From: Trichoplax sp. H2
Taxonomy: Eukaryota
Length of the DNA: 64,000 nt
NCBI GenBank assembly: GCA_003344405.1
Contig: NOWV01000165.1
Span: 62,001-126,000, forward strand
Direction of reading: 5' to 3'
A program made the translations under genes and the position numbers. Positions within the stretch are counted from its first letter, which is position 1; each line of letters opens with the position of its first letter. Below the pieces are notes generated by a model, which did not search any database, was not told the origin of the DNA, and saw only the letters and a program-made list of their open reading frames with translations. This document shows, piece after piece, positions 6,001-32,700 of the stretch.

Positions 6001-9000
6001 TATTGTTTATTTATTCTTGCCATAACTGTTATATTATAACAAAAAGTGATAAAATGGATTTGCTGACTCATAACTTATCATCTATAAATCTTAAACATAC
6101 TCGATTAAATACGAGAATGGCAGCATCTACTACATTCCAGATAGAATACAGTGCATGTTCCTACTTTTTCCAACCGATTCTATACATAAGTACATTCTAT
6201 CATACAGTTAAATCAATTGCGATACTGTCAAATTATAAAATCCCTGTACTCCATCATATCGATAAAATCTTATATTTAAAACAGCTAATAGCTTTCCTAC
6301 GTAAATAATTTTAGGCTATTCAGTTTTGCTTAGACAATGGTGCAGATACTTCTGTTCGTGATGTAAGTTCAAGAAATCTGTAGTTGCTATCGGACTCATT
6401 TTGTTATCCTAATGATAGACTTATTTGCAAAAAATAGCAAATTAACGCGTATCTGATAATTGCCTACTAAAATATTTAGATATAGATTCTTTGGATTAAT
6501 TAGGGACTTCTTTTCTTCCATATCATTAATTAGAAGCGTGGATTTACTCCTTTACACTATGCCGCAATCAGTAATCACAGCTCATTAATGCAACTACTAA
6601 TACAAACAAAACCTGCAATCGATGCACGCGATGATGATCACCGAACCCCATTACACCAAGCAGCAATATTTAGTTTTATCGACATTATGGAAATATTAAT
6701 CAAGGCGGTAGGTATTTAAAATCAAGCAGAATCCTTGGCATATTAATTGCGCTATTTGGTATAGTATTGGACTTCGTATATTCTCTTTGTGTATGTGAGC
6801 CAAAAAACTTCTGGATTCCTTTATTTTTATAATATAGTAGAATAGATTTCTATTTGATCACAAGTGACCGCGTAAATGATTTCTCCTAATGAAGTAGCGT
6901 GGAATTAGATTCTAGCTTAATTTCAGACCATTATCTTCTTATATGTATTGAATTGATGTACTTTAAACTGTTTATGGCAACTAATGCTAAAAAATTTTGT
7001 AAACAGTCATTTAATGATATCCTAATTCAGTAGTCTGCTCTTATTTTGTTAGGGAGCTAGTATCGATGCTAGTGACAAAGAACAAAATACACCATTGCTC
7101 CTAGCTGCTTATAGAAATAAGATTGAAGCAGTACAATATCTAATCGACCTCCATTGCAATATTCACGCTAATGATATTAAAGGAAGAAATTGTCTGCACT
7201 TAGCTATTGCCGGAAGCAACGATGAATTGGAGTTACTAAATTATTTATTATCAGTAAATCGATATCTAGTTATCCTAATGTTCTCGATGCTGCCTAAGCA
7301 ATTCTAATTACAGCATATGTAAACATTTGGGGAAAGATGTCTACTATTAAAGAAAATAGTCATGGTGTAATCTATCATCTCTATTTTAGATTTATAAAGT
7401 ACCATATCTTGAATCAACTGATAACTACGGGAAAACTCCGTTACATTATGCTTGCCAAGATGGAAAATACAAGGTATGTTCATTTCAGAAATTTTCTAGT
7501 GTATCAATTTTTAAATTTTATTCTAAGTGAGCCGTTAAAAATTCGCTTAATGATGGCTATGGCTAACCATTTATTATGACAGATTGTTAATTTACTATTA
7601 AAGTATGAAATAAATGTTTACCTGGTCGATCAAGATGGCAATAACTGCTTCCATTTAGCATGCAAGTAAGTTTATTATAAGTAATAAGTAGCTGTTAATG
7701 CTATGATAATTGTGTTACGTATCTTAAGATTTAATGTAATCATTAAAATAATATAGGAATAGTTATCCTGATATTGCAGAGCTGCTATTAAACCATTCAG
7801 CTGGTCTATTGAATAGTGAAAATGCAGATAACTGCAATGGCTTGCATATCTCCGTGATTAAAGGATGTCCTAGTACCGTTAGATTGCTACTTCAACATGG
7901 GGCTGAAATTGATCGAAGGTTAAACCAAGAAAATTTAGCTTAGCAACTTTGTGCTTACTATTCGTAATTTTAATCTTATCGATTATTTTTGTGATAGAAA
8001 TGCTAGCTATAGCACGCCACTAGATACAGCTCGTATGAATGGTTCTCACCAGATTGTTCAATTATTAATTGATCATGGTGCAGCTCTCAATACATTAAAT
8101 CGATCTGGGGTACAAATTGTTTAAACAACAATAATTACAGGGCGATCGATAATCCAGTTCTGTATTCTACAACTGTATATTGCTAAACTGATAATTTACA
8201 AACATAAATTTTCTCGTATTCCCGGATATTTCTTTTAGGAATCAGCATTGCACATTGCAGCAAGACATGGCAAAGCAGATATTGTTAAACTTTTATTAAA
8301 TTGTGGAGCGGACTGCACAATTGAAAATAACCGTCAAAAAAATAGTCTAGAGATTGCAATCCAGCACGATCAACAAGGTGTAGCCATTGAAATTGCCACC
8401 AAGCCCAAGTAAGAAATTATAGAAATAAACGTAGGAATTGATTTTGCCGAAGATTTGAACACATCATCATCTCTTCTATATAAGCAAATAAATTTAGTAT
8501 CAAATTCTAGTAAATAAAATTAAATAGGAGCAATTTTTTCAGCACCAGAATTGATTTTGCTAAAGATCTAAGTGTATAAGCAGCTTATGCTAATGTAGCT
8601 ATTTGATTTATTAATAAATTTCAGTAAATATATTTAAAAATAAGTAATCCATCTGGTGTAGTTATAGATGGTACTTAAGCATCTACGTAGACCATCAACT
8701 CATCCAAGATAACTGTATAAATAAAAGTGCCATCGAACTTCAGCATGTATAATCAATATTGAACTGGTTTAGTTTTAGGAATGACTTTGCTAACAATTCC
8801 GAGAGAATAACAAGTTCACATATCTGCAGTGTTTGACTTTGCTATCTAATATAAAGGAAACAAGTATTGCATATTCATTTAATGGTCAGAATTAATTTCT
8901 CTACTATACTTCACAAATAAGCAAACCAGTTAAATTTTAGCCGTATACTGATTTTATTCCATCACCTGCCATTTCTAACTAATGGAAACGCAAGGTATAT

Positions 9001-12000
9001 TTGAACTTTGCTACTGTAAGTGACCTACTGCCTACTCAATCATCAGATTTCCAAAGTCTCATGGTCAAATTAAATTTTAGATCTATAGGATGACATTCAA
9101 TTATATTACAATTCTTATTCATTTATCCCGTAGCAAGATGAAAGGGAACCCGTTCTGCTAAGTGTAATTAGTGTGTAGATCATGCAAAGAAATTTATAAC
9201 AGCGGATTTTATTACTGATTCTCTACCGATTGAGATACCGTACTATGTAAAAGTAAAACAAGCTCTGGCAAGTAATGAAAACTTCTTACAATAGTAGATC
9301 ATAGGAATAAAGGACAAAAAACTATAATAACAGAAAAACTTAGATACGTAAATATGTTATCTAACTTGTTTACAATATGACTATGGCGAACAACATCATT
9401 AAACACTTATGGAACTTAATATGAGAATAAAATTCTATGATTAGTATTACACTCTACGAAGCTGAAATCAATATATTTGAATCATCACAAATGTTACTTA
9501 AATATACCCTATTATTGTCAACAACCTAAGATTTTGGTATTATTTTTAAGTTATGCCTAATTTACTTCTACATAAAATTTGACAACATTAGCTTGTCTAA
9601 TAACTTCACTACACAGGAATATAAATTCTACTACATAATGAGATTATGTAATATTTCTTTTACCGTATATGTTTACACCAATTTCTAGGTCTTATTTTCT
9701 TGTTCTTGTTAATAGAAATCGCGATCTTTTGCTTAAAGTTGGTAAAGAGAACATAACAACAATGCAATCAATTATCCAAAAGATGCCAAAAGTTGCTTCG
9801 GTTAGTTAGAATCGTCACCAGCTTAAATATTTTCTTTTATAGCACATATACCGTACATATAACCTAGACCAAGTTAGTTAAGAAGGATCCCTACTATCGG
9901 CAATTTTTACGAATTTTTTTCCATCAGCTCAATTTTAAAGCATCAATCTATACTTTTTCAAACCTAAAATATTTCATCAACTTTATACATCGCATTATTT
10001 CGATATTGTATCCCACTATGTAGGAAGTGATGAATACCTGCATTAAGAAATCGTCAACATTTGATCGCGAAGGCAAGAATATCTATACAGTGAGTTAATT
10101 TCATTATTTTGGCTGTTTTTCCTTTAGAGTAGAAAAGATAGGATGGAGAAATATACTTTAAGAATAATTTAGAGAATGAAATAAAAAGACCGCATTAAAC
10201 TAGATACCAATGATAACCTTAAACTGAATATGTTCTTATTCTCTATAAGCTAATGAGAAGTAAACTGCATGGTAGCTAATGACAACTCAAATTTCATATA
10301 GCGCTATCATTTTATATTTATGAAATTATAGATAGAATATGATTTTACTCTGCTTGAACCTGGAGAGGAATTGGAAGAGATGTACAATTTACCCAAAGGA
10401 ATACATAACTTAAATGCACTAACAGTAACGTATCAGCATATAGAATTATTTCGTAGAATAGCGACAAGAATATGATGATAAACCGTCAGAACGACTAGTC
10501 GTCTCTCACAGCATGCTAGCTAGAACGATCAGCGTAACTTTAGTCATATCATAATTGGTTTTTGCGTATACTTTTGCAACTAAGCCACTTCTACAATTTA
10601 GAATTTGACACTATTTAAACTATATACGATTTTCAATGTGCAGAAAAATGACTGTTTAAAATTTCCTACCCGTATTTATTACCTATAGTCTACTAATACG
10701 ACAACATCAAGTTTTATTAATAAGCTTAGCTTATAACAAAAACTTGAAGCGTAAGGAAAAGCTTTCCCAGTACAAAGCATTTCTTAGCAAGATGAGAGTT
10801 TAATTTATTTCGAAAGGAATTAATATGACAATTAATACCAGTTTTACGTTCTTTGTACAAGATTTGTGAAATCGTTATAGCTATATTTAGTCCATTAGCC
10901 TAATTATCTCATATATTATCTTATCACTATTGCAACAGACAATCGTCTCATCTAATCACGTCGGTCTCCTCGAACATCCACTTTCTGCAAGATTGTTAGA
11001 TACTAAATGGTTAATTTACTATGCTTGTAATCTGTTATTGATCATCTAATATAGTGATATTGACGTTGTTGGTTTAATACGTGATCCGTCATCAATCTTA
11101 GGTCGCATTTTGGTCGAAGAGTCTACGTATTCAACTTAATGATTTATATCTTATTCATCGTGGCTTTGACAGCTTATGTCCTCAATATTGAAGATTATTT
11201 TAATTCAGCTTATAGTAAAGTCCACTTAATAGGACTTCAGCCGTCGAATGCTTTTTCAGGAAATGCCAAACCCGCTAGTCGTTCAATATCTGCCTTTTCT
11301 AATTCAACCAGTAATGGTACCGTAATTGATGTAAGCGAAAAGAGTAGAAATGTTATACTGTTTTTACTATTTTAGTAACTACTCGGCAACATATCTTTAC
11401 AGTCATCAAATCTTTACAATCTTTATTAATAGCTACAATTTAAATGTATTTAACCGAAATTTAAAATATCCAACTTATTAGGATATTGCGAGAAACCATT
11501 CATCAATTCCTATTCTTAAAGCTCTTATTCTAGTATTTTCGATCGTCAATTTGATTCGTGAGATTTTTCAGCTCTATCACGAGGTAAAGTAATCTATCAC
11601 CAAATCACTAGTATTGAAAACGTACTCCCTTTCCTAAGTAGTTTATCGGTCTATCCGTCACTTTTTCTCGTATTATTCACTATTATTTACTATTTTAAGT
11701 CACCTTGACTTAATCGACGAATTAATCTACTTTGATACCTCTAGAAGTGGAAATATTTCCTTTCCTATGAGAATTATTTTGAAATCGCTTTGCATACCAG
11801 TGTAATTGCCTTTGCCGTAGGTCCCGGAACAAGTTCTTATTTTTGGGCAATTGGAACATTTTCTGTTCAATTAGCATACATAGAATTAGTGATGTTCTTA
11901 AGAAAGTATGTTGGATTGTTAATCTAATTTAACCACCATCTTAGACATCTCACGGTTAATGCATATATACATGGGATAATTATCAGTAATATTTTGTATT

Positions 12001-14068
12001 CTATATATTGAATCTTTGCGTTCTTTGATGGATACAACAGACTTCCAGTTGTAGGAAAATATGTCCTTATGATACGATCTATGGTAAACACTATTCTGAA
12101 GGTATCCACAATGCAAGTAGAATGTAACTATAGAATACTACAATCATTCACCTGATCTACAGCGTTTAGACGATAAATTATGGCGATTAAATCATATATG
12201 ATATCTTATTTATCTACTAGTTTTTACTGTATTTTCATATGTCCCAAAGAGTAAAATATTTTATTACTTTCCTTAGGTTATGATTATCGTATTTATCTTT
12301 GTTATGGGTTTTGCTATCAGCTTTGGGATGCAATGCCTCCATGAGGTCGGACAACATGGTGAAAGTTGAACTTGATTAACTATTCCTTTCCAAACTTTAA
12401 AAGCATATTGATTATTCTAATTGTTACTTAACTGTATATTTTGTTAAATAAAATTATGTTTCAAGCTCGTATAAAGAGATTAAATAATGTATTAAACACT
12501 GAAGTAAACTTTTCTAAATACTAAGATATCTTAAGTATTCTGGTCGTTTCTTATTTGTATTTCTCTAATTTATAAGTTTTTAAGTGGTATTATATAGAAG
12601 CTCTATACCTCTCTATAGCGATTAGTTTGACTTTACTGCTATAAAAATTTTAAATATTATATTGATTAAATTTACTTAGGATATATTTGCATTAAACAAT
12701 TCCCTAGGTGGCGTTCAGTAACATCTTCCTGTCTGTTATTAAAGTAATTGATATGATGGTTGGGGAAATTGATTACAAAGATGTATTTCTATCTGGAATT
12801 CAAAATGGCGATATAGCCTATCCTGGAAGTTATGCAGTTTTAGTCATTTTAATTATATTCATTTTTATTATGTCGATCTTAGTCATGAATTTGATGGTAC
12901 GTATGAATTAACAATTGTTTCTACTAAATTAGAAGTTACTTCTATAATTATTTATTGGAAAATTTTGTTGATGCTAATATATTAACCAGTACAGTACGAA
13001 AGTTGATTTATCACGTAGAAGCAAGGCATAATTATGGTAGTTTCTTTACCTTTTTTACATAATATAGCGCGTATACCTGTATGCTATGTTTTCATTAGTC
13101 TTACTTAGTATCTTAATATAATAAAGAAACTAGTAAAATGTAATGACCGATCGAATATTTGCTGTAAAATCTTTTAAACTATGGATTTCAGTTGCCAAAA
13201 AATTTATTATATGTTTAATGATCAGAAGAAATTCTTTATTAGCCATAATTAATACAGGAATATGTAAATGTACTCTAGTAAATGCTACACCTGGCAGCTA
13301 GTCAAATAGGAACGCAGGATGTGTATTTATTTTGCAATATAATATAGGAAATATACTCCGCATTCAATATTAGTATGAATTCTGGATTCTTCTTAATTTT
13401 ATTTTAGATTGGTCTAGCTGTTGGTGATATAGCCGAAATGGAAAAGAAAGCTAAACTTCGACGTTTAGCAGATTTAACTGACTACTTCTACAATATTGAT
13501 AAAATTATGTCACGTCATCTTCGTAAGCAATATAAAATTGACAAGATTACATGTACTGAAGTAGAACGGATTACAGTAAGTATCGTAAAAACGAATATTC
13601 ATAAAATCGTCAATAATTCAAAAAACTTGCTATGTAAATTAACGGTTAAAATAAGATATTAACTACTTAAAATTACTCATTTTCGAAACATCAGATAGTA
13701 CATTTTGTTTTCTAGCAGTAAAGAAAGCTAATTCTCACAATTCTATTAATTAGACTGTAGATAAATCAAATTCAAACGAATGCCTGTTTGAATCGCACAA
13801 TTCTGAAATAAGCTCTCAGATGCAAGAAATGGTTCGTCAATTTGAATCTCAAAGAATGAGGTATTCGATGTTTTACAGACATGTTTTTTAAATTGAAGAT
13901 ATTGAGCATTTTTGATGAGATCTCTTTAACAGTACCCTCAAGTTTATTCTGTGAATATGATCTCATTACGCTGCCATTTTCTGTTTACATCAATTTAATA
14001 GACTGGTCGCAATGGAAGAAAAGCTTAGATTTATATGCCAAAATATGGATGATACAAGCACTTCTTAA
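3039..14068 (+). CDS. TRPA1-like: Gene B: complete TRPA1-like channel, 26 exons, 1079 aa, about 16 ankyrin repeats plus 6-TM channel domain
   Basis: Exons 3039-3119, 3700-3865, 4370-4545, 5452-5559, 5657-5863, 6315-6362, 6534-6707, 7053-7253, 7390-7473, 7583-7665, 7757-7918, 7998-8109, 8239-8408, 9716-9800, 10024-10089, 10332-10424, 10939-11009, 11102-11330, 11482-11583, 11745-11905, 12041-12101, 12277-12345, 12708-12896, 13408-13575, 13754-13860, 14002-14068. They sum to 3240 nt with no internal stop. Motifs: repeated TPLHxAA ankyrin motifs, pre-S1 LLEHPLSARLLDTKW, pore MMVGEIDY, S6 MNLMIGLAVGDI. Confidence 0.92.
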
Positions 14069-16131: not shown

Positions 16132-19100
16132 ATGGAGATGCTTAGAAGATCAGATTGGTCGAAAACTTCGGTTTTATTTAGTAAAACAAAGAATGTAGAC
16201 GCTCACGATATACTACAAGTAAGATCAAATACTAAATACTTTCACTCTTATTGTAGCTTACTTCTTATACAGTAAATAAACTAAAGTACAAATACTCGCT
16301 GTCTGAAATAAAGCTATCTATAACACCGGGAGAGTATCTTTGCCCATTTAATTGCAATTTTTATTCGACTTTTCTAGACCTATTTGCTAGAATTTGATGT
16401 ATTATTAAGTTAATCGTCTCTTAACATACAATACTTTCAACAAAATTTCGAGTACTTCAATCGTTTTATGACATGAAATTATTACGGTATATATCATCGA
16501 TTTAAATAACTCCCTACCATTTAATTAAAGTTTTTAGTTACTAATTCTTTACTAAAACATGCCATCTCACCTTCTTTTCTATCACATGAAGAATTTATCA
16601 ATCTACATTTTATTCACTATCCTAATAATAATGTTAGGCTGCAAAAAGTAACGATATGCTGCTTTTGCAACAAGCTCTACCAAATGAAGAAATTGGAACA
16701 CTTGCTAACCAACTGGATCGCGATCGTTTAGCCCCATTGCACTATGCGGCAAGATGTGGTAATGCTGAAGTCATTGAATGTTTAATCGCAAGGGGTGCAG
16801 GTTCGTTAATCATCTAGTAGCAACTACTTACAACGTAAAAGATTTGATGATATCTGCAGTAATTATAGTTATTAATTTTGATTTAATACCCATTATAATT
16901 ATCGAATTCCTGACTGCAAATACCGTCAGATCTCATTATTGCTGTGTTATTTCATCTTAGACATTAATATTAAAGGCCTAAACAATGTAACACCACTACA
17001 TTTGGCAGCAAGGTATAACAGATATACAGCTGTAAAAGTATTACTAATGTTCAATGCTGATATCGGCGTTAAAGATATAGACTCTAATACGGCACTGCAC
17101 TATGCAGCAAAAGGTGGGAATCAGAAGATTTGTGAGGTAAAACTGAAAAAGATTGGAGATATTCTACTCTGCTAGTTTATGTCTTCATTTCTTACTAAAG
17201 TTACTAATGTCAATCATAATAAGAAGCGCATTACTTGAAATCCAAGAATTATAGTAATTATTATAAAGAAGACATAATATAGATGTAGAAGACGACAGTT
17301 TAATTAGACAAAACCAACAAAATTACAAAGCAAATCAATTGCCACAAATATTTTTGATACATTTTTGTTCTAATGAGTGCTTTATGGTAACGGGAATAAA
17401 AGTACTTAGATTAGAATATGATACCAGTAGCACCGAAGCCAGTTATTTATTTTTGTCCATAGGTATGCTTTGCTTAAAATTACATTACATCATCCTCTAA
17501 AGTCTTAACATATTCGATTTCAAGTGATTTAAAAGATGCAGCAATACTATTGTACAGTATTATTGTCACAAACAGTAAAAAAAATACTTAATTAATTCGA
17601 GTTTTACTCATCATCAATTACCTTACAGGAATTACTCAACAAGCGCCCATCGTTAATTGATAGTGTAAATGCAGATGAAATGACACCTTTACATTTCGCT
17701 TGCAATACCAATCATGAAGCAGTTTGCGTCTGTCTGGTAATATATTGAATCAAATATCTAATGCAATAGACAGTCGAGTATCTACTTCGAGGGAGGTAGC
17801 AATATAATTCGATGTTATGTCTCATCCGCTATTATTGCAGATTGAAAGAGGAGCAGATATCTTACGCAGAACTGCTGATGGCAGTTTGCCGATTCACTTG
17901 GCTGCTAGTAAAGGAAATACGAGTCTAATGGAATTATTATTGACTACTGGGGAGGCAAGATATGAACGTCGTGAAAACCATATTGTAGAGTGCAATCACG
18001 ATGGTGCCTCCGTTTTACATCGAGCAACTCAATGTGGCCAAAAAGAGGTTAGGATTTCTTTCAAAAATCTATAGATTGATAATGATAATATTTTATTTAC
18101 TGTAGAACTTGCTATTTTTTGTTAAATCATTTCAAAACTTAGCACTTAACCAAACTAATCTTACTCAATTCAACTTGATAGGCTGTCATTTTTGCCTTAG
18201 ATGCTGGTGCCGATGCCTCCTTAAGAGATGTAAGTGTGTCTTGATTGAAAACTTGCAAGAAAAGTTTCTATAATATGCATTCTTAAGTCAATTGTACTAC
18301 AACGATATACTGGAATGCCATAAAGTTAGTTAGCTTAGCCAATCAAACTGCGAATGATAATAGTGGTATTGCTCTGTAAAGATTGTTTTAATTTACAGCA
18401 AGTTAGGACGTCTCTTAATAGTTATCCTTTCTTTTCAATTCGCTAACAGAAAAATGGCTATACACCCTTACATGTTTTAGCTATTACAGGCAATTGTGAG
18501 ATTTGTCAAATTTTGATTGATAGAAGAGCTGCTATTGATGCTCGTGACAACGAACAACAAACTCCATTGCATCATGCAGCATCATTGAACCATTGCCAAA
18601 TAGGAGAACTTTTGGTCAAAGCTGTAAGTCAGGGTTTTAATTTGCTACTATAAATAGATATCAGGCTGCATTGCCAACTACAGAATAAAATAGTAACACT
18701 CGCTTGCAGTAAATCGATCACGAAACCCCAAATTTGTATAAAATAAGGACTTTATTCGATCTTTACTAGTGCAAACTCCCGTCGCTTTACTGACGGTTTA
18801 CGATAATGTGCTCATTTAACAGAGGTTCAGTAACTATCAGATCTCTGACTAACGAACATTATCCTCTTAGAAATACTTTTTGTAATATGATATATAGCAA
18901 TCAAAAATAACCGGGACAGGGGAACTATAGTAGGGTAACACTACGAATTGCAAGAGAGCAATAGAACTAAGAGTACCTACTGATGTGTATNNNNNNNNNN
19001 NNNNNNNNNNGCTAACAGAAAAATGGCTATACACCCTTACATGTTTTAGCTATTACAGGCAATTGTGAGATTTGTCAAATTTTGATTGATAGAAGAGCTG

Positions 19101-22100
19101 CTATTGATGCTCGTGACAACGAACAACAAACTCCATTGCATCATGCAGCATCATTGAACAATTGCCAAATAGGAGAACTTTTGGTCAAAGCTGTAAGTCA
19201 GGGTTTTAATTTGCTACTATAAATAGATATCAGGCTGCATTGCCAACTACAGAATAAAGCAGTAACACTCGCTGGCGGCAAAATCGATCACGAAACCCTA
19301 AATTTGTATAAAATAAGGACTTTATTCAATCTTTATAAAAAGAATAATCTGCACCTGACTCTAGTCTAGCTATCTACAACTACTAGAAAGACTTATAGGG
19401 AAAAAACTACCAGAATAAACTAAAATTGCCTGTTTATATACTTTTTAGTAGCGTTTGTAGCTACAATTATCATAGCAACATCCTACCTAATTTTGCCCGT
19501 ATGCAAATTATTATTAGTAAAAAAATTTTGCAGCGATCTATAATCTAATGTCGTAACAACTACAGTACACATTATTTCTGCTAGCCAAAGTACGATGAAG
19601 TAATCATTTCCTAATATATGAGTTACATATGTATTTTTNNNNNNNNNNNNNNNNNNNNGGTCAATTCTATACCAATCATTATAATGTGTCTAAGGATCGC
19701 TGTCGTATGCAAGCAAAGCTTGCTCTGTCGATAACAACCGTTATAAGAAAATGTAACAATCAAAATGGCTGTATAGAAAACTCTATAAAGATTCTATGTT
19801 TATTCAATTTTCATCAGAATATTACATGAAATCAAAATTTAAAGGCCCAGTGGCCACCCTTAGCGATATAACGAATACTATTTTAATAATCAGTACTCTG
19901 CAGAAATTACTACCTTAGAGCTATTCGTTTTACATGAAGAAATCTTGAGGTTAAAAGTACTGTAAGAATCTTATACTGACCTATTGAAATGAACCCATAA
20001 TCAGAGTCATTTAACAGTAGTATAAATACCCCCGCGCTGCTCGTTTCAAGGGAGGGTGGGCGGGATAAAAATAATAATCTGCACCTGACTTTAGTCTAGC
20101 TATATACAACTACTAGAAAGACTTATAGGGAAAAAACTGCTAGAATAAACTAAAATTGCCTATTTATATACTTTTCGTAGCGTTTGTAGCTACAATTATC
20201 ATAGCAACATCCTACCTAATTTTGCCCGCATGCAAATTATTATTAGTAAAAAAAATTTTGCAGCGATCTATAATCTAATGTCGTTACAACTACAGTACAC
20301 ATTATTGCTGCTAGCCAAAGTACGATGAAGTAAACATTTCCTAATATATGAGTTACATATGTATTTTTACCTCTAACACTAATAGTAACTCAGTACCCTA
20401 ATGTACGAATATAGTTATAGGTACTCTACCATAGAATCTTCAATTACAGTCTATGGTGATGAGCTACTAAATATGCCTAAGACAAACATAGACAGCGCTA
20501 TTGTACATCATGCTAGACATGCCTAATAATCTACAATCCAATATAAAATTAGGTTGTACTGCTATTCTACATAATTTAAATTGAATTTGTGAGAGTTTGA
20601 CTGCTGTAACCTCTATTCAGGTACGATATTTCAGCGAGCAATAAAATTTTCAATCAAAGTTACGAATGATAATAAAAAAACTGCTTCATTCCCTTCCTAC
20701 AGTACCGTTCTTGGTTTAAAATAAAATGGAAAAATGTTGACTATTCTCTACTTAAATCGTCATTTCAACTAGGGAGCTAATATTGATGTGGTAGATGCAA
20801 AGGGTAAAACACCTTTAATTTGTGGAATCTCTAGAGGTCGTACAGAAATAGTTCGATATTTGCTTTTGTCTGGCAGCAAAGTTGAAGGAACTGATACAGA
20901 AGGAAAAAATTGCCTACACTTAGCTGTAGAAGGATCCTATGAAGATTTTGATGTAATAAATTGTCTACTGACAGTAAGATGATCCACTAACTCATAATAA
21001 AATTTCATCGTATTTACTTTATTCTGATCTCTAATCGGAAACTTTATACCAGTAATAAATTTAAATTTACTCTTGGCTTCTTGTTAAGAGAAAATCGTCG
21101 GAGCTTTTAAATACCACAGATCATCACCGTAGAACACCCTTTTATTATGCATGCAATAAGGGAGACTACAAGGTAACTAGAGAGTATCAATTTATGTGTT
21201 TTATCATTACTATTATGATAACTTACGCTTTTTGACATTTCGAGTTAGTAAGGTAATTTATTAAATTGGATTAGATTTTCGAAAAAATGCTCCAATTTCA
21301 GCTCGATTTAGATATCACCGATGAAGATGGCAACAACTGCTTTCATGCGGCATGCATGTAATTTTATAGCAAACTAGTAGTACTTTACTACAGCATTGTA
21401 TAAGGAATTCTAAGTCGCTTATATCCTGAATTATTTATGATATAAATTACCATTATGATAGTAGTATAGTATAATTAATTTTCTACCAGCTTAAAATTAT
21501 GGTATACTACACCTTATAACAAATAGCAACCTATTTTTTTCAGAGGTATTTGTGTCTATCGTTCTGCCAAGAAATTTTATTGATGTTTCTATCTAATATT
21601 AACAGAGCTGGAAGATATGAAATTATCAAAACATTGATCTGCCGATTTCCTGGTCTACTATGCAGCGAAGGCGAACGTAATTATACTGCTTTACATATGG
21701 CTGTGGCTAACGGTTGTCCATTTACAGTGGAAACTCTACTAGATCGGGGAGCTGATACTTATAGAAGGTAAGTATCCATAATCAGATTATCTTTTTCCGT
21801 TTTTGAATTATTGGTACTATTGATATTCAAGACATAGAGGTTATAGCATTACTAACGATTATAATTTTTCTATTGGTTATTTATACATTTATTGACAAAT
21901 TAACCAGGGATTGCAGCTATTCCACGCCTCTAGATATCGCTTGTATGAAAGGTTTTTCTCATATTGTTAAAATTTTAATCAACTATGGAGTGGATATAAA
22001 CTCCGTTAACAAAGCTGGGGTAACATTCGCCATAGCCATGATATTACATTAATTATGTGTATGATAACACACTATTTTTAAGCCAATTCATACGATTGCT

Positions 22101-25100
22101 ATATTTTACTCAATATCTAAAATATGCCAGCAATCTTTACTAGATAGTATTATTATCTAAATTACCTCAGATTATATCGCTACCTGAAGTCTAACCCTAC
22201 TAGCGGTTAGATTTCGATCAATATAAATCAAAATATTTTGAATGCACTACAATTTTCTTCATGATAGGAATCAGGATTGCACATAGCCGCTCAGTACGGT
22301 CATACTGAAATTATGAAACAACTTATTGATAGCGGAGGTGATTTATCAAAAGAAACAGTCAGAGGAGAAAATCCTTTAGAAGTTGCTATCCGATATTGTC
22401 AACAAGATGTTGTTACCGCAATAGTAACCTTATTAAGGTATACATTATAACAAAATAAAAAATTCATTTTAAATGTTCTAACTATATTCGCATAATAAAC
22501 AAATTTCACTAAGATATTTATATTTGAAACTATCGACAGTAATTGTTGCATGTTATTCGATTGCGAGCTAAAGGATCAGTATAACTGAAGCAGATTAGAC
22601 TGAATGGAGTGTTATCCAAAACAAACTACGAACCTTAACCGTAGTGATAGAAAAGTCATTACATTCCGCATTAAATTTCTGATAATTATTTCACTTAATA
22701 CTAATGGCAAGGATTGCTTTTATAATCAATTAGTGCGAAAATAACGAGAACACAGATATAGTATCTTACGCACACAATTTCAGCATTATCCGTATCAAAT
22801 TGATAGCAGAATAAATCTTTAAATCGTTTACGCTTGCAACCAACCGTTAGGGAAAAGGATCTTTTATTAAAAGTTGGAGAAGAAGGCATAACAACATTTC
22901 AATCTATCGCCCTAGCTATGCCAGAAGTAGCAGAGGTTATATCTACTACATAATGATTTTTTCAATAAAAAACAGTGTCAGTAATGAAATATTCAATATA
23001 TTATGGCTGCGATGTATGATAAATATCAAATTGAGATAATCCTCAACGGAATTCACTTTTGGTAATCATTTTCAAGATTCATGGATGGCATTAGCTAACC
23101 AATTTTGTTACATTACAGAGTATTATGGACAGATGCATTACAAAGATCGCCACATCAGATATTAAAAACAAAGAGAAAATTTTAGTAAGTTTTATTAACT
23201 GTTGTTTACGTAAGCATTATTTATCCGTAATCGAATCAAATGATGCTTATTGCCCCTAACAGATAAAGTTATTATGAAATTGCATAGGGCTTAGAGGTGT
23301 ACTAAAATAGAATTAGATTTAGCAAAGTTATACTCGAGATCTGCGGATAATTATTTGTTTCTTTACAATGAAATTATTAACTATCAAAATGTTAGCAATT
23401 TATTTCATCAGAGCTTAACCTAATTTTTGTCAGTATTTTTGCTAAGGTGGAATATGACTGTACATTACTTGAACCTGGTGTTACGTTTGAATATGCACAT
23501 GGAGCTCCAAATGGAATTGGTAGCTTTAACGCTTTACTGGTGAATATAAGATTTTACGTCCGGTGTACACGCATTACTATAATTTTAAATTTTTATTAAT
23601 TAATACTCTTCAGTTTAAATCATGACACGCTAATAGCAATAGTATAGCCAATATACATGGAGGATAGTTTAAGCTTGTAATTTTGGACGACATTTCAAGT
23701 TAAATACGAATCGCACAAGCCTAGTATTAACTCACGATCGAATAATATCATCTGTATTTCTATACAGTATCTACCAATATTAGATGTAAAATTAAGTATA
23801 TATCATATGAACAGATTGTTACGCATTATATTTGAAAAAAAATTTCCAATCTGACTGGAAAACAATTAAGAATGTTAAAGACTATCCGTGAAAAAAGTTG
23901 TAAAATTGCTATAAATGACTATCATCAGAGCACGTACTGCATATGCATATGTAGTATGCTTACCAAAAAATAGATGGCTAGTAAAATAATGTCAAGAGCC
24001 GTAGCTTATACTGAAAGCCACACAAGCTGAAAATTGATTGTAAAATTAAGCCCTCGTTTGACTACAATCTATAATCCGGTACTTCGAAAATAGCCTAGTA
24101 TAAACATAAAACTAAAGAGCAATGCTACTGTGCATTTGAGTGCACAATTCTTAGTAGTTCAGCGGTATTTAACAGATTTCGTAAGTAAAAGTAAAGATTC
24201 AGAAGAATTATCATGCTTAGTAACATTCGTCGCATTAGTTCATAGTGATATAAATAAATTACAGTGCTAACTGTAGATCTTATTTTCGTAGACAATAGCA
24301 AAATCGAACCGTATTAACTTATTAGAGCATCCACTTAGCAGCAAACTCTTAAATGTTAAATGGTAAATATTAAATATAGAACTGATAACGCTGATTGCCT
24401 ACGCGTATAAGTTTAGTACGACATAACTATTAGTAATTTATAAATGTATTGTTTACTATAGCGTCTATCAGATCCATTCATCAGATTTGTATTTTTTACC
24501 TTTTTATAGGAGGCAATTTGGTCGATATGTGTATTATCTAAACCTGTTCACCTATATCCTTTTTGTTGCATCCTTAGTGACATACGTACTTATTATAGAA
24601 CAATTCTATAAAAACAATTCTGGAAATACAATCACGTTTAAAGGGCTTAGCCCACAATCAAGTATTACAAATTCATTCGAGGTATCATCCACGACTGTAA
24701 CTGCCTCTTTTGAAAATAGCACAAATAGTAATGCGACTACTCCGCCAAATGTAAGTTTATGAGGAAGATATCTACTGCAGTTAGTTATACATAAGTTTAT
24801 CTTTTAAGTACATTAGAGTATACGAAACAGCTTTAAAGCTGTTTCGTTTTCATGAATGTTAGTATATTGATATAACTGTAATTATTTAGTAAATAGTAAA
24901 ACTATACTGTTAATACCTAATTTGTTGAATTATATTAAACATCATGTTATAATGTTTCTAAAGTAATAATTTACACTCACGTACCTAATGGGGCTACCAG
25001 AAATGAATGCAGCGAAGCATGCCATACCATACATTTATAATTTTTGACACATATGAAATCAATCTGACGACATTTTCTAGCTTTAATAAACTAAATATGA

Positions 25101-28100
25101 TCTTATAAATGGGCAATTTCCCTTAAACTGCGTTATTAAAATTTATTTATTAGTGGTCAAATAATGTCCTAAAATTGTTTCACCTAAGTGTATATTAAGG
25201 ACTAAAATCTCACGAAGTACAGTAACACAATGAGAAGAGACACTTTCTCTTCCTATCACTTTTACTGTTATACCGCTACGCCGGTAATAAAGACTAGAAT
25301 CATTCTAGAGTAAAATCACTAGGCAATCTGCTATAAAAGAACCATGCTTCCTTTAGCGATCCCTAACCAACTATGCATAGTAGTCAGTGTAACCCACGAA
25401 GAACTCGGAGAAATCACTAAAAAGCACTTTATTCATCATTGACGCGGTCTTAAACAGATATTTAATATTATGATAGCTCCAACCGCATCCAGAGTTATAA
25501 TTTTAGTAAATTTTCTAATGAACGCCAGCGCATCTAAAATATATCATTCAGGACTTCTTAAAAATCCGGTCTAGCTCTGTCAATTACCACATTTCTATCG
25601 CATGAATTACTACTACAATTTAGCATAATTTTGTATTAAATCTCCATAGTTGACATATAAGCTATAATCAGTAATTTTAGATAACAAACTGTGTTAGCAC
25701 CTACGAATAATTCAAGTACTGTAGACAGACTATTTTCAATCCTAAGACGTTCAAATTTAGGTATAATCTAAATATAATCAGGGCTTAATTTACTACAGTC
25801 TTTACGATAAATTTCCTATTAAGTCAAATATGAACTTATCTTTCTAAAAGTTAACAGTTGATTATCTTTCAAGGTATTTTACTACCGTTGACAGTGTGTA
25901 ATTAAGTTTTCCATAGTGTATTACTCGTTTCTAGATTACAGTATATTATAGTTCTTAGTTCATACATGTTCCATATCAGCAATACTGCTTAGTCATATCG
26001 TTATCATACGTTATGAAGATATTGATATTCTAACAGTAATTAATAACAATATTCTACGTAGCATGTTGTTCTTTTCCTATTGTTTATAAGTTACGGATTC
26101 TATGAAAGCCACTTATCTTACTAAAAGTGTGTTCTACTATTCACCCGTTCTTGAGTAGGTTATTCTCTTCAATAAACTACATTAATAACTGCTTTGTCGT
26201 CAGTATCATTATGTGTGGCCGACCAATGATAACATTTCCCAAGAAAGTTAGCGAACGGCTTAAGATGATATGATTACTGTCATTATTTCTTGTGTATTCT
26301 TCAAAGTAACACCGTTTGATTTCCCAATCCAAAAAAGAATCTTGTTCTGCACCATTGTCTCTTAATTCTTACATACAAATTAAACTTTTTATATAATAAA
26401 GATTTATAATATATCCTATAAGTATATAAGATATTGCCGCCTAGTCATCAGAAATAGTAATAGAGAAAAATATTGATTTGCAATAGTTTTGATGCACTGC
26501 ATAAAAGTGGAAATTCGATTGAAATTATCACAAGATTTCCAAAAACTCATAGTTTAATTCCGCTAAAATGTAGGACGCGGTATCATTTATCCAATCTTTA
26601 TTGATCTTCCGAATTCTCATTGCCTTCTTCTCAATACTGAATGTAATTCGCGAGCTATTTCAATTAATTCAAGAGGTAAGACAATATATGCTTATCATTG
26701 TTACATTATTTAAGTGCTGTAATTTTAGGATCATTCATTTAAGACTCTGTCTAGACTGATTTCAAACTGTGTCGTACTATGTTCTTTTTTTAATAAGCGA
26801 GGACGCTATTTTATGTGCTTCGAAAACTATTTTGAGCTAGCTCTTCATGCTATGGTCATCATTTTTATTGCGGATGGTAACACTAATCCAACTACATGGT
26901 CCATTGGTAGCATCGCCATTCAAATGGCAGTTTTCGAATTAGTCATATTTCTAAGAAAGTAAATTATCAGCATTTTTCTAGCAGCGTTTTAAATGTAATG
27001 TGTATTTAATTTACTGCATTATCTTGAACTGATGCAACAATAACGTAATAAATTCATTTACAGATGTAGTTATAATTTAAAATAGTATTGTAATTGGATT
27101 AATTTAATAAAAGAAGGATTAATATTTATCGCATTATTGAAGTAACAAATATCCATTCACAGGCTACCAGTTATTGGAAAGTATGTACTTATGGTTCGAA
27201 CTATGACTCGTACCATCGTAAAGGTATAGTTATGAACGGTCATAGCTAAGATAGCATTTACCACCGTAATTTGATTTTATCGTTTTATCTTAGTAGCAGA
27301 TATCCATGTTTTTACGAAATAAAAATATATGCCCATGGCTCACCTTTAAAATATTAATCATTTTCAATTAGGTACTCGTTATTGTACTTATATTGGTATT
27401 TGGTTATGCTATTAGCTTTAATATGCTATGCAGTCGTCAGGTTTGTAAAGTAGACATGTAAGATTTCAATTTCAATATCTATGCTTATGGTTAATCTGAC
27501 AAATCCATCTTTCTCGTTATTACCGCAATTATAATTAAAATAACATAAACTTCGATCTAATCTGTAAAATTACAGGACTTTAAACAATCATCATTAATAC
27601 TCAAAATTTATTAATAATATCAGGCAGCATTCTACAATATGCCTCTATCGTTTATTAAAGTTATCGATATGATGATCGGTGAGATCGACTATAAAGATCT
27701 CTTTCTAGATGGCGTTAAAAGCGGAAAAATTCCTTTCCCAGCTGGCATCGTGACATTTTTTCTACTAATGATTTTTATCTTAATAATGCCGATATTAATC
27801 ATGAATTTGATGGTAATCTGTTTAATTTATTATACATGGTAATAAAGGCAAATAGGAATGGAATTAATATGATTTTCATTTTATTTATATGCAGATCGGT
27901 TTAGCTGTAGGAGACATCGCTGAAATGGAAAGGGAAGCTTCACGACGTCGATTAGTTGATTTGATTCTTTTTTTTAATAGTATCGAAAAGGGTGTACCCA
28001 AATTTTTACGTAAAAACTGTAAATTAATCAAATTTACTTGCACTGAAAAAGGAAATGTAGAGGTATCATACATTGCTTGATATTAGCAGTCACAATCTTA

Positions 28101-28480
28101 AGCCTTAATATCATTTCGCGAATTTCTAAACCTAATTTAGTCTTAGATAGCTACTTACTAGCTGCATTTATTGAAAGTTACCGAAAAATTTTATCATTAT
28201 CTTAAATGTAATAGGTCAATAAATTAGATGCAAACGAAGCCAAGCAAAAACAATACTATGAATCTATCGAGCAGCACATGAACAAAATCGAGCGTATACT
28301 ATTAGACCAGCAATCAAGGTTTAGCGAATAAATTCTTGATAATCGCTTTAGCTGTATTACTAATTCATATCTAAACCATAATATTATTGTCAATCTCTTA
28401 AATATTGCAGACTAGAAACTATCGAAGCTAAATTGGAATCTGCAGGAAAATCTGAAACACCACCATTAAATGAAGAATGA
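16132..28480 (+). CDS. TRPA1-like: Gene C: complete TRPA1-like channel, 26 exons; closest paralog of gene D
   Basis: Exons 16132-16218, 16638-16800, 16961-17136, 17629-17736, 17841-18047, 18182-18229, 18450-18623, 20773-20973, 21089-21172, 21275-21357, 21606-21767, 21908-22019, 22268-22437, 22851-22935, 23119-23184, 23447-23539, 24292-24362, 24510-24750, 26574-26675, 26798-26958, 27163-27223, 27372-27440, 27624-27812, 27895-28062, 28215-28318, 28411-28480 (TGA). Intron phases match gene B; pore IDMMIGEIDY; S6 MNLMIGLAVGDI. Confidence 0.92.
18991..19010. other. Assembly gap (20 N)
   Basis: Run of N. Confidence 1.
19011..19638 (+). repeat. Near-identical second copy of gene C exon 7 (19019-19192) and intron 7 without the Helitron; probable alternative-haplotype contig
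   Basis: 19011-19335 matches 18442-18765 and 19336-19638 matches about 20066-20368, with scattered SNPs. It is bounded by N gaps on both sides. Confidence 0.85.
19639..19658. other. Assembly gap (20 N)
   Basis: Run of N. Confidence 1.
24822..24847. repeat. Perfect 26-bp palindrome in gene C intron 18
   Basis: ACGAAACAGCTTT|AAAGCTGTTTCGT is its own reverse complement. Confidence 0.95.
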
Positions 28481-29271: not shown

Positions 29272-29701
29272 GAAATAAATATATGACGTACATCATCCAA
29301 ATTACCAGCATGCAATATAATGAAGAACTAGAAGTAATATCAGAATGAGTTGAGATTAAATTAATACCTATTTGTTAGCATTGTTTGTTTATAGTACCAT
29401 ATTGTGAAATATAATTAGACGAAATTGATAAAAGCTTAATTGAAAAAGATCATGATATAAAGGAGAACGTTTTCAGTTGCATATTTGAGCCATGTAAATG
29501 TGTAAACGGTTATATTTATTTACAATCTGTTGCCTTATGGAAATAAACAATAATTGAATTAAAATTCTGTCAATAATCCCCAAAAATAGCGATTTCAAGC
29601 GATAACTTCAAAATAAAATCCAGCTATTGAAATCCTTCCTTTCGATAGTATTATTATCGGTTCAAGTTTACTTATATTTTGATGCACTAAGTTGTACAGT
29701 A

Positions 29702-32700
29702 ATGGAGATGTTTAGAAGATCAGATTGGTCGAAAACTTCGGTTTTATTTAGTAAAACAAGGAATACAGCTGCTCACGATATACTGCAAGTAAGATCAAAT
29801 ACCACGTTGTTTTATTGTCTATTACTTTTAATACAATAACTAAACTAAACTAAGCGCGAATGCTAGTAGTCTGAAATGAGGCTATCTTAGATACCTAGAG
29901 AGCATTTCTGCTCATTGAAATGCAATTTATATTCAACTTTTCCAGGCCTGCTTGCCGCTATTTTATGTATTATTATTAACTTAGTCGTCTCTTAGCATAC
30001 AATACTTTCATAAAATTTAAGTCTTTTGCTGGTTTAATAACGGTAAAGTTAGCATAGATATCATCAATTCGCATAAATCTCTACCGTTTAATTAAAAATT
30101 CTCCGTGACCACGATAGCAATTCTTTACTAAAATCATGATCATGCAAACATATCGTCTTGCCTTCTTTGCTATCATATCGAAAATTTTATCAACCTATTC
30201 ATTACTCTCTATGCTAACGCTAATATTAGGCTGCAAAAAGTAGTGATATGCTGCTTTTACAGCAAGTTCTACCAAATGAAGGAATCGAAATATTTGCTAA
30301 CCAACTAGACCGCGATCGTTTAGCCCCATTACACTATGCGGCAAGAGGTGGTAATGTTGAACTCATTGAAGGTTTAATTGCAAGAGGTGCAGGTTCGTTA
30401 ATCATCCACTAGTAACTACTTACAATGCAACAGATTTGATAATATTGACAGTATTATAATTATTAATCATGAATCAATATGCATTATAATTATCAAATGC
30501 TAGACAATGAATGCCACTGGACCTGACTATTTCTTTATTATTTCGCCTTAGATATTAATATTAAAGGGCTAAATGACATAACACCACTACATTTGGCCTC
30601 AAAGTATAACAGATATGCAGCTGTAAGAGCACTACTAATGTTTAATGCTGATATAGAAGCTAAAGATACAAATTCTAATACGGCAATGCATTATGCAGCA
30701 AGAGGTGGAAATGAGAAGATTTGTGAGGTAAAACCGGAAAATATTATCGGTATTCTACTCCGCCAGTTTAAATAGTGTAGTCATTAGTAGCTATTGTCGG
30801 TACTATGAATCCTTTTAGATCATTATGTAGAATACCACCGTTAAAAATTTACATCTACAGCTATATAGCGATTCTTTACTAAAGTTACTAATGTAAATCA
30901 AGATACAAAACATGCATTACCTGAAATCCAAGATTTATCGTACTTACTATAGCAACAACTAGGATATAAAAGTTGAAGACGACAGCTTAATTTGGAAAAT
31001 TCAAAACAAAATTATAAAGTAAAATCAGTCGCAACAAAAAGTTATTGATACATTTATATTCTAATGATTGCTTTAAGGTTAATGAGAATAAAAATGCTTT
31101 ACACTAGAATATGATTTCGTAATCAGTTACTCATTGCTGTTCATAATAACACTTTACTAAGAAATACGTGGCATTATTCCCTAAGAGTCTTAAAATGTTC
31201 GATTTCAAGAGATTTAAATGATAACTATGAGCATAGTATTACCATTCCAAGTAGTAAAATAAAATACTCAAATAGTTCGATTTTGCTTATCATGCTTATC
31301 AATCACCTTATAGGAAATACTCAACAAGCGCCCATCCTTAATTGATAATGTAAATGCAGATGAAATGACACCTTTCCATTTCGCTTGCATTGCCAATCAC
31401 GAAGCAATTTGTATCTGCCTGGTAAGATATAGAATCAACTATCCAAGTCAATAGATTTTAGAGTAAATATTTTAAAAGAGGTAAGAAGATAATTCAATGC
31501 CATATCCAATCAACTGTTATTAAAGATTGAAAGAGGAGCAGATATCTTACGTAGAACTGCTGATGGCAGTTTGCCGATTCACTTGGCCGCTAGCAAAGGG
31601 AATACTACCCTGATGGAGCTATTGTTGAGCACTGGGGAGGCAAGATATGAAGGTCGTGAAAATCATATTATAGAATGCAATCATGATGGTGCCACCGTTT
31701 TACATCGAGCAACTCAATGTGGCCAAAAAGAGGTAGTTAAGGCTATTTTAGTCTATACCTCTTCTATGATTGTTTACTCTAACACGAAATTAGTTATACT
31801 TGAGACAGTAGCTTAGTGCGTATAGCTTGATATTTATAACTGACAAGAAGCGATAGAAATAATTTTTGTAACAAGTACCGGAACCTAACATGTTTCGAAT
31901 TATTAGTCTGTAGCTAAATGCCTCTACATGGCAGTATGTATCAAGGATAGTCCTGGTAACAAATACCTTATACACTTCAAAAAACTAGTCTATAGCTTAA
32001 TTAGCGTTCGTGATTGACAATGGCTGATAAGATATAAGAAGAAAACTCTTTGCAAACAAGTGCTTTAGGTGCTTTATAAAACATTAGCCTACAGCTTTGA
32101 TATATTTAATTGACACACAACAACACCAACATTCTTAAAACTAGAGTATCTTATGTTGTATAACTGGAAAAATTAGTCTATTACAGCCTAACATGTCAAT
32201 TGATATCAAACAGCAATCTTCTATGCGTAAAATATCAACATCTACTTTAAAAAAACTAGCTTGCTTTCAAAATTCTTACTCGACAAACGGTAAGAATAAC
32301 ATTTACATTCACAGCCTATAAGCAATAGGCATCTTCCTTGCACGCGAAATCCTTCGATACTTCCCAAATTATTCCATAGCATAATATTCGAATGGAATAA
32401 TGAGCAATAATTATCATGTAAATTTCTTCAACTATCAAACTAATCCTGCTAAATTAACTTGATAGGCTGTCATTTTTGCCTTAAATGCCGGCGCCGATAC
32501 TTCCTTAAGAGATGTAAGCCTATTTTTGTTGAATTCTTAAAGAAAAAGTATCTATATTATGAAGTATCAAGTCAAATGCACTTGAATATCATGCAAGAAT
32601 GCGATAGAGTTAACGAGTTGCAGTGAAGCCCTAAATAAGCTTAAGACTAAGACTATGGAATAATGAAAAAATTGATAAATTTATACGTTAGGTTGTAAGA

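What the first reader, a model, noticed from the sequence alone, without database searches (positions are those of the whole stretch)
18766..20065. Polymorphic Helitron captured together with its empty site
Seen: the filled version reads cttta|CTAGtgcaaactcCCGTCgctttactGACGG ... gggtgggcggGA|taaaa, while the contig between the gaps reads cttta|taaaa at 19335/19336 with the same flanks on both sides. On the minus strand the insert has 5'-TC, 3'-CTAG, an 18-nt subterminal hairpin, an A|T target and no TSD. Established: this is the full diagnostic set for rolling-circle Helitrons. Inference: a heterozygous and so relatively recent insertion of at least 632 bp in a TRPA intron, implying recent Helitron activity. 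No RepHel ORF is visible in the sequenced parts. No ORF-based annotation would reveal it.
Basis: partly seen in the sequence, partly recalled or inferred. Interest (0 to 1): 0.78.

Follow-up and report, generated by a model that had tools for sequence, protein, structure and literature searches.

The report
Recent Helitron insertion in Trichoplax
One chromosome copy of a Trichoplax ion-channel gene carries a rolling-circle "Helitron" jumping gene in an intron while the other copy is empty, which suggests that transposons in this animal, described in print as inactive, moved not long ago.

Summary
The scaffold holds both alleles of one intron site. The filled allele is split over two contigs (insert arms 18766-18990 and 19659-20065). 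The empty allele is a 628-bp contig between two 20-N gaps, with the break at 19335|19336.

On the minus strand the insert starts with TC and ends with CTAG. An 18-nt GC-rich hairpin lies 13 nt from the 3' end. The insert sits between A and T, with no target duplication and no terminal inverted repeats. By the window's own statistics this combination has a chance of about 1e-4 or less.

Public contigs of four runs show single-copy depth (about 20-60) on the flanks. On the arms the depth is 1,200-14,000 in most bins, and 75,000-185,000 on the terminal 44 nt that hold the hairpin. The insert is therefore a member of a large family.

Two runs (X1, X5) carry the filled allele's own flanking variants (10-11 substitutions plus 1 deletion) joined with no insert. 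The insertion is thus younger than its haplotype.

The host is a TRPA1-like gene of Trichoplax sp. H2. I could not test for a RepHel partner.

Verdict: a non-autonomous canonical Helitron, polymorphic and probably recent. It is a new member of a known kind. Papers on Trichoplax call its transposons inactive.

The parts
18450..18623 (+). Ankyrin-repeat exon of the TRPA1-like gene on the filled haplotype. The 5' splice site gtaagt is at 18624.
   Evidence: Pfam Ank, E = 2e-13. It matches P0001, named TRPA1 [Trichoplax sp. H2].
18624..18765 (+). Intron sequence, the left flank of the filled allele, ending ...cttta.
18766..18990 (-). Helitron 3' arm (right terminal sequence). The CTAG-3' end is at 18766-18769 and the 18-nt hairpin at 18779-18796. 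The arm runs into the first gap.
   Evidence: In one search the summed depth is 75,000-185,000 for 18766-18809, and subfamilies diverge after 18817.
18991..19010 (.). Assembly gap of 20 N. The interior of the insert is not sequenced.
19011..19638 (+). Contig of the other haplotype, the empty site. It holds a second copy of the exon (19019-19192) and the uninterrupted target cttta|taaaa at 19335|19336.
   Evidence: In one search, X6 record 25 (1,808 nt) covers it with 0 differences, and X3 records 9, 11 and 12 cover 19011-19634 of it with 0 differences.
19639..19658 (.). Assembly gap of 20 N.
19659..20065 (-). Helitron 5' arm (left terminal sequence). The 5'-TC is at 20065-20064.
   Evidence: In one search the summed depth is 780-13,800, and loose-end consensuses of other copies also end ...GGGA followed by T.
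20066..20772 (+). Remainder of the intron, the right flank of the filled allele, starting taaaa. The next exon starts near 20773.

Best explanation
The insert is a non-autonomous canonical Helitron (rolling-circle DNA transposon). It lies antisense in an intron of a TRPA1-like channel gene of the placozoan Trichoplax sp. H2 and is present on only one of the two haplotypes. The short-read assembler could not merge a filled and an empty allele, so the scaffold strings them together as filled-left, gap, empty, gap, filled-right.

Inferred mechanism, from established Helitron biology: a RepHel transposase encoded elsewhere nicks the element strand at A|TC. It unwinds the strand 5' to 3' and stops at the hairpin plus CTAG signal. 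The single-stranded or circular copy is then pasted between an A and a T, with no target duplication.

The element belongs to a large family. Its roughly 50-nt 3' end is shared by many subfamilies.

The same flanking haplotype exists without the insert in other runs. The insertion is therefore younger than that haplotype, and the family was active recently.
For: **Shown directly**
- Ends TC and CTAG, an 18-nt hairpin 13 nt from the 3' end, an A|T site and no TSD. There are no terminal inverted repeats, no RNA-family or tRNA hit, and the chance of the combination is about 1e-4 or less.
- These are the defining features quoted in passages of PMC4778049 and of the HELIANO preprint.

**Family (4 of 4 runs laid, at 80% likeness or more)**
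- 371-525 contigs per run lie on the 1,300-nt stretch, and 93-163 of them are at least 99% alike.
- Flank bins 19030-19469 have depth 17-96. Arm bins have 1,193-13,840, apart from the three bins noted in the Against line. The terminal bin 18766-18809 has 74,721-185,145.
- Repetitiveness stops at the insert ends, because the flank bins next to 19335|19336 are single-copy.
- Of the loose-end consensuses shown, two in X6 (4 and 5 contigs) end ...GGGA then T. One at the other end (3 contigs) is read as flank A followed by TTAG. On the minus strand these are A|TC and CTAA|T.

**Polymorphism**
- X1 record 2 (19229-19404, depth 22.7) has 10 substitutions plus 1 gap. X5 record 17 (19011-19404, depth 29.2) has 11 plus 1.
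- These counts equal the differences between the empty contig and the filled allele's flanks, yet both records cross the site with no insert.
- In X3 the empty allele crosses at depth 13.4. The other haplotype's contig (17.3) carries the left-flank variants, but no contig with its variants is seen at 19342, 19361 or 19374. That haplotype reappears at 19525-19634.

**Host gene**.
Against: - No second copy of the element was seen as actual sequence. Family evidence is summed contig depth, which the tool warns is not a copy number, plus 3 loose-end consensuses with agreement of only 0.57-0.62. Only 24 of 322 loose-end rows and 32 of 1,810 contig pieces were shown.
- Not every arm bin is far above the flanks. 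X6 has 40.7 at 18942-18985. The bin that runs into the first gap (18986-19029) has 18.6-317. X6 has 783 at 19646-19689.
- No contig spanning a filled junction was among the rows shown, so the filled allele outside the assembly rests on X3's haplotype stopping at the site.
- The interior is unsequenced, so the two arms could belong to a composite or nested insert.
- The hairpin stem is only 5 bp and its folding energy is not unusual (z = -0.83).
- No RepHel ORF is in the window (0 of 132 ORFs of 58 aa or more), and no genome was held to search.
- Published surveys found only degenerate Helitron protein fragments in T. adhaerens: 17, none marked as a complete ORF.
Confidence: 0.78

Rival explanations
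1. Another kind of repeat that also inserts without a target duplication, whose ends merely look like Helitron ends. Examples would be an unclassified placozoan element or an IS200/IS605-like single-strand transposon.
For: 3.8% of the Trichoplax sp. H2 genome is 'Unknown' interspersed repeat, and only 0.01% was labelled Helitron (Kamm et al. supplementary Table S2). No RepHel partner is shown. The hairpin is short.
Against: The joint chance of A|TC, CTRR|T and a hairpin is about 1e-4 or less. The loose-end consensuses shown for other copies give the same A|TC and CTRR|T junctions. I know of no other eukaryotic class with this set of features; that statement is recalled, not tested.
Confidence: 0.1
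2. Assembly artefact. Contigs 1 and 3 ran into dispersed repeats by mis-joining, and no insertion exists at this site.
For: The assembly is short-read and was extended with guidance from a reference genome (PMC6057997 passages). The arms are high-copy repeats. No junction-spanning contig was among the rows shown.
Against: The two independent contigs break at exactly the same nucleotide of the empty allele, and the two breaks show opposite ends of a structured element. In X3 the matching haplotype reaches the site but does not cross it, whereas in X1 and X5 it crosses.
Confidence: 0.06
3. The filled state is ancestral, and the empty alleles arose by precise loss of the element through excision or deletion.
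For: An empty site alone cannot give the direction of change.
Against: The empty state is found on two haplotypes that differ at 22 positions in 628 nt, and the filled state on one only. The loss would have to be exact to the nucleotide twice, or be carried over by gene conversion.
Confidence: 0.05

Closest known systems
Helibat / Helraiser family of vespertilionid bats (canonical Helitron)
   Same: 5'-TC and CTAG-3' ends, a palindrome just upstream of the 3' end (19 bp, 11 nt upstream in Helraiser; 18 nt, 13 nt upstream here), insertion between A and T, no TSD, no TIR, and many non-autonomous copies (PMC4778049 passages).
   Different: No sequence similarity was tested. The host is a placozoan. 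No RepHel-coding master copy is known for this family. The stem is only 5 bp.
Non-autonomous Helitron-N families (for example HelibatN; Lep1 of Lepidoptera)
   Same: Short, non-coding elements in which terminal sequences are conserved while interiors vary. Here many subfamilies share the terminal ~52 nt and diverge after 18817.
   Different: For Lep1 I saw only the search listing. Here the length is unknown (632 bp or more) and the interior is unsequenced.
'Unknown' interspersed repeats of Trichoplax sp. H2 and T. adhaerens (Kamm et al. 2018)
   Same: The family is probably part of the 13,784 unclassified repeat hits (3.62 Mb, 3.82%) reported for Trichoplax sp. H2.
   Different: Those repeats were left unclassified, and TEs were judged 'probably inactive'. 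Here a class is assigned and a presence/absence polymorphism is shown.
Helentron / Helitron2
   Same: Rolling-circle elements without a TSD and with a 3' hairpin.
   Different: They insert between T and T and have short terminal inverted repeats (HELIANO preprint passages). Here the site is A|T and no TIR was found.

Membership tests
Helitron (canonical, Helitron1-type) | 5' end begins with TC | tested here: met
   On the minus strand, 20065-20064 reads TC. Placement has a 1-nt ambiguity. The two loose-end consensuses shown for other copies keep ...GGGA before a flank T.
Helitron (canonical, Helitron1-type) | 3' end is CTRR | tested here: met
   On the minus strand, 18769-18766 reads CTAG. One consensus of other copies reads CTAA.
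Helitron (canonical, Helitron1-type) | Short palindrome or hairpin about 10-15 nt upstream of the 3' end | tested here: met
   An 18-nt hairpin at 18779-18796, 13 nt from the end, with a 5-bp stem holding 4 G:C pairs. Such stems occur in 0.09% of 36-nt windows. Its energy z-score of -0.83 is not significant.
Helitron (canonical, Helitron1-type) | Insertion between host A and T, with no target-site duplication | tested here: met
   Filled cttta|...|taaaa against empty cttta|taaaa. The same haplotype without the insert is seen in X1 and X5.
Helitron (canonical, Helitron1-type) | No terminal inverted repeats | tested here: met
   None of the 12 inverted pairs found joins the two termini.
Helitron (canonical, Helitron1-type) | Multi-copy family whose copies share both termini at A|T sites | tested here: inconclusive
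   Multi-copy status is clear from depth and from 371-525 contigs per run. The ends of other copies were seen only as 3 low-agreement consensuses. No genome was held, the window holds no other copy, and the metagenome scans found 0.
Helitron (canonical, Helitron1-type) | Autonomous relative encoding RepHel (HUH Rep plus SF1 helicase) with the same termini | not testable with these tools
   No genome was held. 0 of 132 window ORFs hit a Rep or helicase family. The literature reports 17 degenerate Helitron protein fragments in T. adhaerens, the largest 3,543 and 2,463 bp. Their termini were not examined.
Helentron / Helitron2 | T|T target and short terminal inverted repeats | tested here: not met
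   The target is A|T and no TIR was found.
SINE or other retroposon | Target-site duplication, an A-rich or simple-repeat tail, and a tRNA/7SL/5S-derived head | tested here: not met
   There is no TSD, no tail at either end, and no Rfam match at E of 1 or less in 18300-20600.
Cut-and-paste MITE | Terminal inverted repeats plus a TSD | tested here: not met

The most novel reading that the evidence does not exclude
This Helitron family is still transposing in clonally propagating Trichoplax lineages. On this reading the insertion arose in the lineage of the sequenced clone after it separated from close relatives that carry the identical haplotype without it. That would overturn the published view that placozoans have no active transposable elements. 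It would also reclassify a good part of their 3.8% 'unknown' repeats as Helitrons, and it would provide presence/absence markers to date and order the clonal lineages.
Probability: 0.35. Interest if true: 0.62.

Novelty: new member of a known kind. Interest (0 to 1): 0.45.

Why it matters
Two genome papers describe Trichoplax transposons as scarce and inactive. One tabulates 'Active TE: None' (PMC2871265). The other calls them 'probably inactive' and labels only 0.01% of the genome as Helitron (PMC6057997).

Three findings sit against that picture:
- a high-copy Helitron family in the same genome;
- many contigs at least 99% like this copy;
- an insertion missing from an otherwise identical haplotype.

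Together they indicate recent rolling-circle transposition in one of the smallest and supposedly most static animal genomes.

There is also a practical correction. The public TRPA1 gene model carries a false in-frame duplication of about 47 residues, because the scaffold contains both alleles.

Tried and rejected
- **Other copies in the window.** There are none. blastn, a 31-nt pattern with up to 3 mismatches, and blastn-short gave only chance-level words. An exact 11-mer shared by both arms at 18812 and 20007 is at chance level (E = 0.67).
- **Exact scans of JGI metagenome contigs** for the 31-nt and the 22-nt 3' end: 0 and 0.
- **Earlier notes of this scan.** There is no look-alike by sequence and no Helitron note for this genome.
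- **SINE or RNA origin.** 0 Rfam matches.
- **RepHel in the window.** 0 of 132 ORFs. ORFs under 58 aa (169 of 301) were not scanned.
- **5' end fold.** Nothing unusual (z = 0.51).
- **RepHel in Trichoplax proteins.** I did not search for it, because I had no query sequence from a tool.
Only one read-laying run was allowed, and 4 of the 20 runs were used.
- **Depth holes and the missing right-flank contig of the filled haplotype in X3.** These may be due to the tool's filters and are not counted as evidence of absence on their own.
Full report
**1. What is in the sequence**

The window is AT-rich eukaryotic DNA of 29-33% GC. It carries a head-to-tail array of at least five ankyrin-plus-channel genes on the plus strand. 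Two runs of 20 N lie at 18991-19010 and 19639-19658.

The first contig reads through an ankyrin exon (18450-18623, splice donor gtaagt at 18624) and 142 nt of intron ending ...cttta. From 18766 it continues as ctagtgcaaactc followed by ccgtc-gctttact-gacgg, until the gap.

The third contig starts at 19659, ends its foreign part with ...gggcggga at 20065, and continues taaaa....

The 628-bp contig between the gaps repeats the exon and the left intron part (97.2% over 324 nt). It then runs straight on into the right intron part (95.7% over 305 nt), joined at 19335|19336. A base-by-base comparison gives 9 differences on the left and 13 on the right. The middle contig is therefore the other haplotype, not a copy of the same reads.

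One base (an 'a') could belong either to the flank or to the insert.

**2. Is it more than chance?**

Read on the minus strand, the insert begins with TC and ends with CTAG. An 18-nt hairpin (18779-18796) lies 13 nt from the 3' end. The host bases on either side are A and T, and nothing is duplicated.

Using all positions of both strands of the window, P(A|TC) = 0.020 and P(CTRR|T) = 0.0051. A hairpin of 5 bp or more occurs in 21% of the 36-nt windows upstream. The joint chance is 2.2e-5, or 8.8e-5 after allowing for the free choice of strand and boundary.

The hairpin alone is weak evidence. Its folding energy is ordinary (z = -0.83). However, a stem with at least 4 of 5 G:C pairs is found in only 0.09% of windows in this DNA.

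No inverted repeat joins the two ends. No RNA family matches 18300-20600.

**3. Host and gene**

An exon-derived peptide finds a 1,126-aa protein named 'Transient receptor potential cation channel subfamily A member 1 [Trichoplax sp. H2]' (P0001). Its exons map to 16132-28477, several at 100% identity. The pore region matches solved TRPA1 structures (best E = 1.6e-6).

Two earlier notes of this scan place other pieces of the same genome in Trichoplax. The insert lies antisense in the intron between the exon ending at 18623 and the exon near 20773.

**4. The family**

No genome is held for this window, so I used public runs. Twenty runs under two coded organism names hold the stretch. I laid the contigs of four of them (X1, X3, X5, X6; four studies) on 18766-20065 at 80% likeness or more. 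I chose that stretch because it holds both arms and the empty-allele flanks without any internal repeat.

- **Number of contigs.** 371-525 contigs per run lie on these 1,300 nt. Of these, 93-163 are at least 99% alike, 133-188 are 95-99% alike, 102-148 are 90-95% alike and 40-43 are below 90%.
- **Summed depth.** The flank bins 19030-19469 have 17-96. The 3' arm interior (18854-18985) has about 1,500-8,600, except 40.7 in X6 at 18942-18985. The bin 18810-18853 has 17,800-23,900 and the terminal bin 18766-18809 has 74,721-185,145. The 5' arm has 783-13,840.
- **Rough size.** The tool warns that such sums are not copy numbers. Taken only as an order of magnitude against the 24-58 seen on single-copy contigs, they suggest tens to hundreds of copies of this subfamily and a few thousand copies of the terminal 44 nt.
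- **Where repetitiveness ends.** The flank bins that touch 19335|19336 are single-copy, so repetitiveness ends where the insert ends.
- **Subfamilies.** Several sets of contigs share 18766-18817 and then diverge (loose ends after 18817, 18821, 18823 and 18835). Many subfamilies therefore share the 3' end. One single-copy locus has two 3' ends in tandem (a joint from 18802 back to 18774 with 16 nt between, depth 35-40, in X1, X5 and X6).
- **Ends of other copies.** Of the 24 loose-end rows shown out of 322, two in X6 give ...GGGA followed by T at the 5' end. One gives flank ...A followed by TTAG at the 3' end. On the minus strand these read A|TC and CTAA|T. Their agreement is only 0.57-0.62, as expected if the flanks differ, so I count them as weak support.

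The conserved hairpin end with variable interiors is what Helitron biology predicts. In the bat element the 3' palindrome acts in termination, and new 3' ends and chimeric interiors arise by read-through (PMC4778049, passages).

**5. The alleles in other runs**

One search gives the exact differences between the empty contig and the filled allele's flanks.

- **X1 and X5.** In X1, record 2 (19229-19404, depth 22.7) has 10 substitutions and 1 gap. In X5, record 17 (19011-19404, depth 29.2) has 11 and 1. These are the numbers expected for the filled haplotype's flanks. The positions listed are 19259, 19260, 19274, 19277, 19279/80, 19328, 19342, 19361 and 19374, plus 19160 in X5, and they match. 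Yet both records run across 19335|19336 with no insert. The exact empty haplotype is present beside them (depth 18.3 in X1 and 16 in X5). These two runs therefore hold both haplotypes, and both are empty.
- **X3.** The exact empty haplotype crosses the site at 13.4. A contig with the other haplotype's left-flank variants has depth 17.3. No contig with that haplotype's variants is seen at 19342, 19361 or 19374, although it reappears at 19525-19634 (record 13). This is the pattern expected for a filled/empty heterozygote at about half depth each. No junction-spanning contig was among the rows shown.
- **X6.** Only the exact empty haplotype is seen (record 25, 1,808 nt, 0 differences, depth 23.6). 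Part of the 3' arm interior is at near single-copy depth (40.7, against 3,740-5,287 in the other three runs). This suggests that the subfamily expanded in some lineages only.

The insertion is thus missing from an otherwise identical haplotype over 175-393 nt, so it is younger than that haplotype. The empty state occurs on two haplotypes and the filled state on one, which makes insertion far more parsimonious than precise loss.

**6. What is in print**

- **PMC2871265** (passages and supplementary file 2). TEs make up 0.13% of the T. adhaerens genome and the table reads 'Active TE: None'. There are 17 Helitron-like protein fragments totalling 12,820 bp, the largest 3,543 and 2,463 bp. Complete ORFs were found only in hAT and mariner elements.
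- **PMC6057997** (passages and supplementary Table S2). For Trichoplax sp. H2 the table gives Helitron 144 hits and 11,978 bp (0.01%), and 'Unknown' 13,784 hits and 3.62 Mb (3.82%). [quoted passage not shown] The assembly was MaSuRCA followed by reference-guided extension. [quoted passage not shown]
- **PMC12221973** (passages) discusses Mutator elements in placozoans and does not contain the word Helitron.
- **Full-text searches.** 'Trichoplax' + 'Helitron' found 16 papers, 'placozoa' + 'Helitron' found 19, and 'Trichoplax' + 'rolling-circle' + 'transposon' found 4. None has a title or abstract that describes a high-copy or active placozoan Helitron.
- **HELIANO preprint.** It names neither Trichoplax nor Placozoa in its main text.
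- **Repbase and Dfam** could not be consulted, so the family may be deposited there under some label.

**7. Mechanism and confidence**

- **Shown:** the structure of the ends, the target site, the absence of a TSD and of TIRs, multi-copy status, the insertion polymorphism, and the position and orientation in the gene.
- **Inferred from established Helitron biology** (PMC4778049): mobilisation in trans by a RepHel protein that nicks at A|TC, unwinds the strand, terminates at the hairpin/CTAG and integrates at an AT dinucleotide.
- **Not shown:** the transposase source, the full length, that the arms form one element, and the time of insertion.

I put 0.78 on 'polymorphic non-autonomous canonical Helitron'. 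I give about 0.35 to the stronger reading that the family is still active in these clonal lineages.

**8. Verdict**

This is a real and well-read finding. In kind it is ordinary, a new member of the Helitron class. In context it is of moderate interest. It assigns a class to part of the unclassified placozoan repeats. It is also concrete evidence against the printed statement that Trichoplax has no recently active transposons.

Noticed in passing
window 18450-18623 and 19019-19192; protein P0001 residues about 264-370: The public TRPA1 gene model of Trichoplax sp. H2 contains the same ankyrin exon twice in frame (...HHAASLNHCQIGELLVKA then ...HHAASLNNCQIGELLVKA), because the scaffold carries both alleles. 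The second copy, about 47 residues, is an assembly artefact. The two alleles differ by one His/Asn change (18591 C against 19160 A).
   Followed up: yes
window 1-64000, plus strand: A tandem array of at least five TRPA1-like paralogues (ankyrin repeats plus Ion_trans). One ends near 740. The others span about 3,700-13,660, 16,132-28,477, 29,700-39,900 and 42,000-53,000, and a further one starts near 56,350. The paralogous exon at 33239-33443 is 87% identical to the exon next to the insert.
   Followed up: partly
window 19470-19645 (also 20199-20368): The intron just right of the insertion site has summed contig depth of 84-405 against about 20-60 nearby, with several variant contigs at 19489-19503 and 19600. 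This looks like a second, low-copy repeat unrelated to the insert.
   Followed up: no
window 18774-18802 (seen in contigs of runs X1, X5, X6): Elsewhere in the genome one single-copy locus (depth 35-40) has two copies of the Helitron 3' end in tandem, separated by 16 nt. This could be an insertion next to an existing end or a read-through event.
   Followed up: no
window 18942-18985 and 19659-19780: Run X6 shows only 40.7 (and 783-1,076) summed depth where X1, X3 and X5 show 3,740-5,287 (and 2,245-10,633). X6 also carries only one haplotype at the locus. It seems to be a distinct strain in which this subfamily did not expand.
   Followed up: no
window 18812-18822 and 20007-20017: The same 11-mer (tcatttaacag) lies 46 and 48 nt from the two ends of the insert, in direct orientation. 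By blastn-short it is at chance level (E = 0.67), but the symmetric placement is curious.
   Followed up: partly
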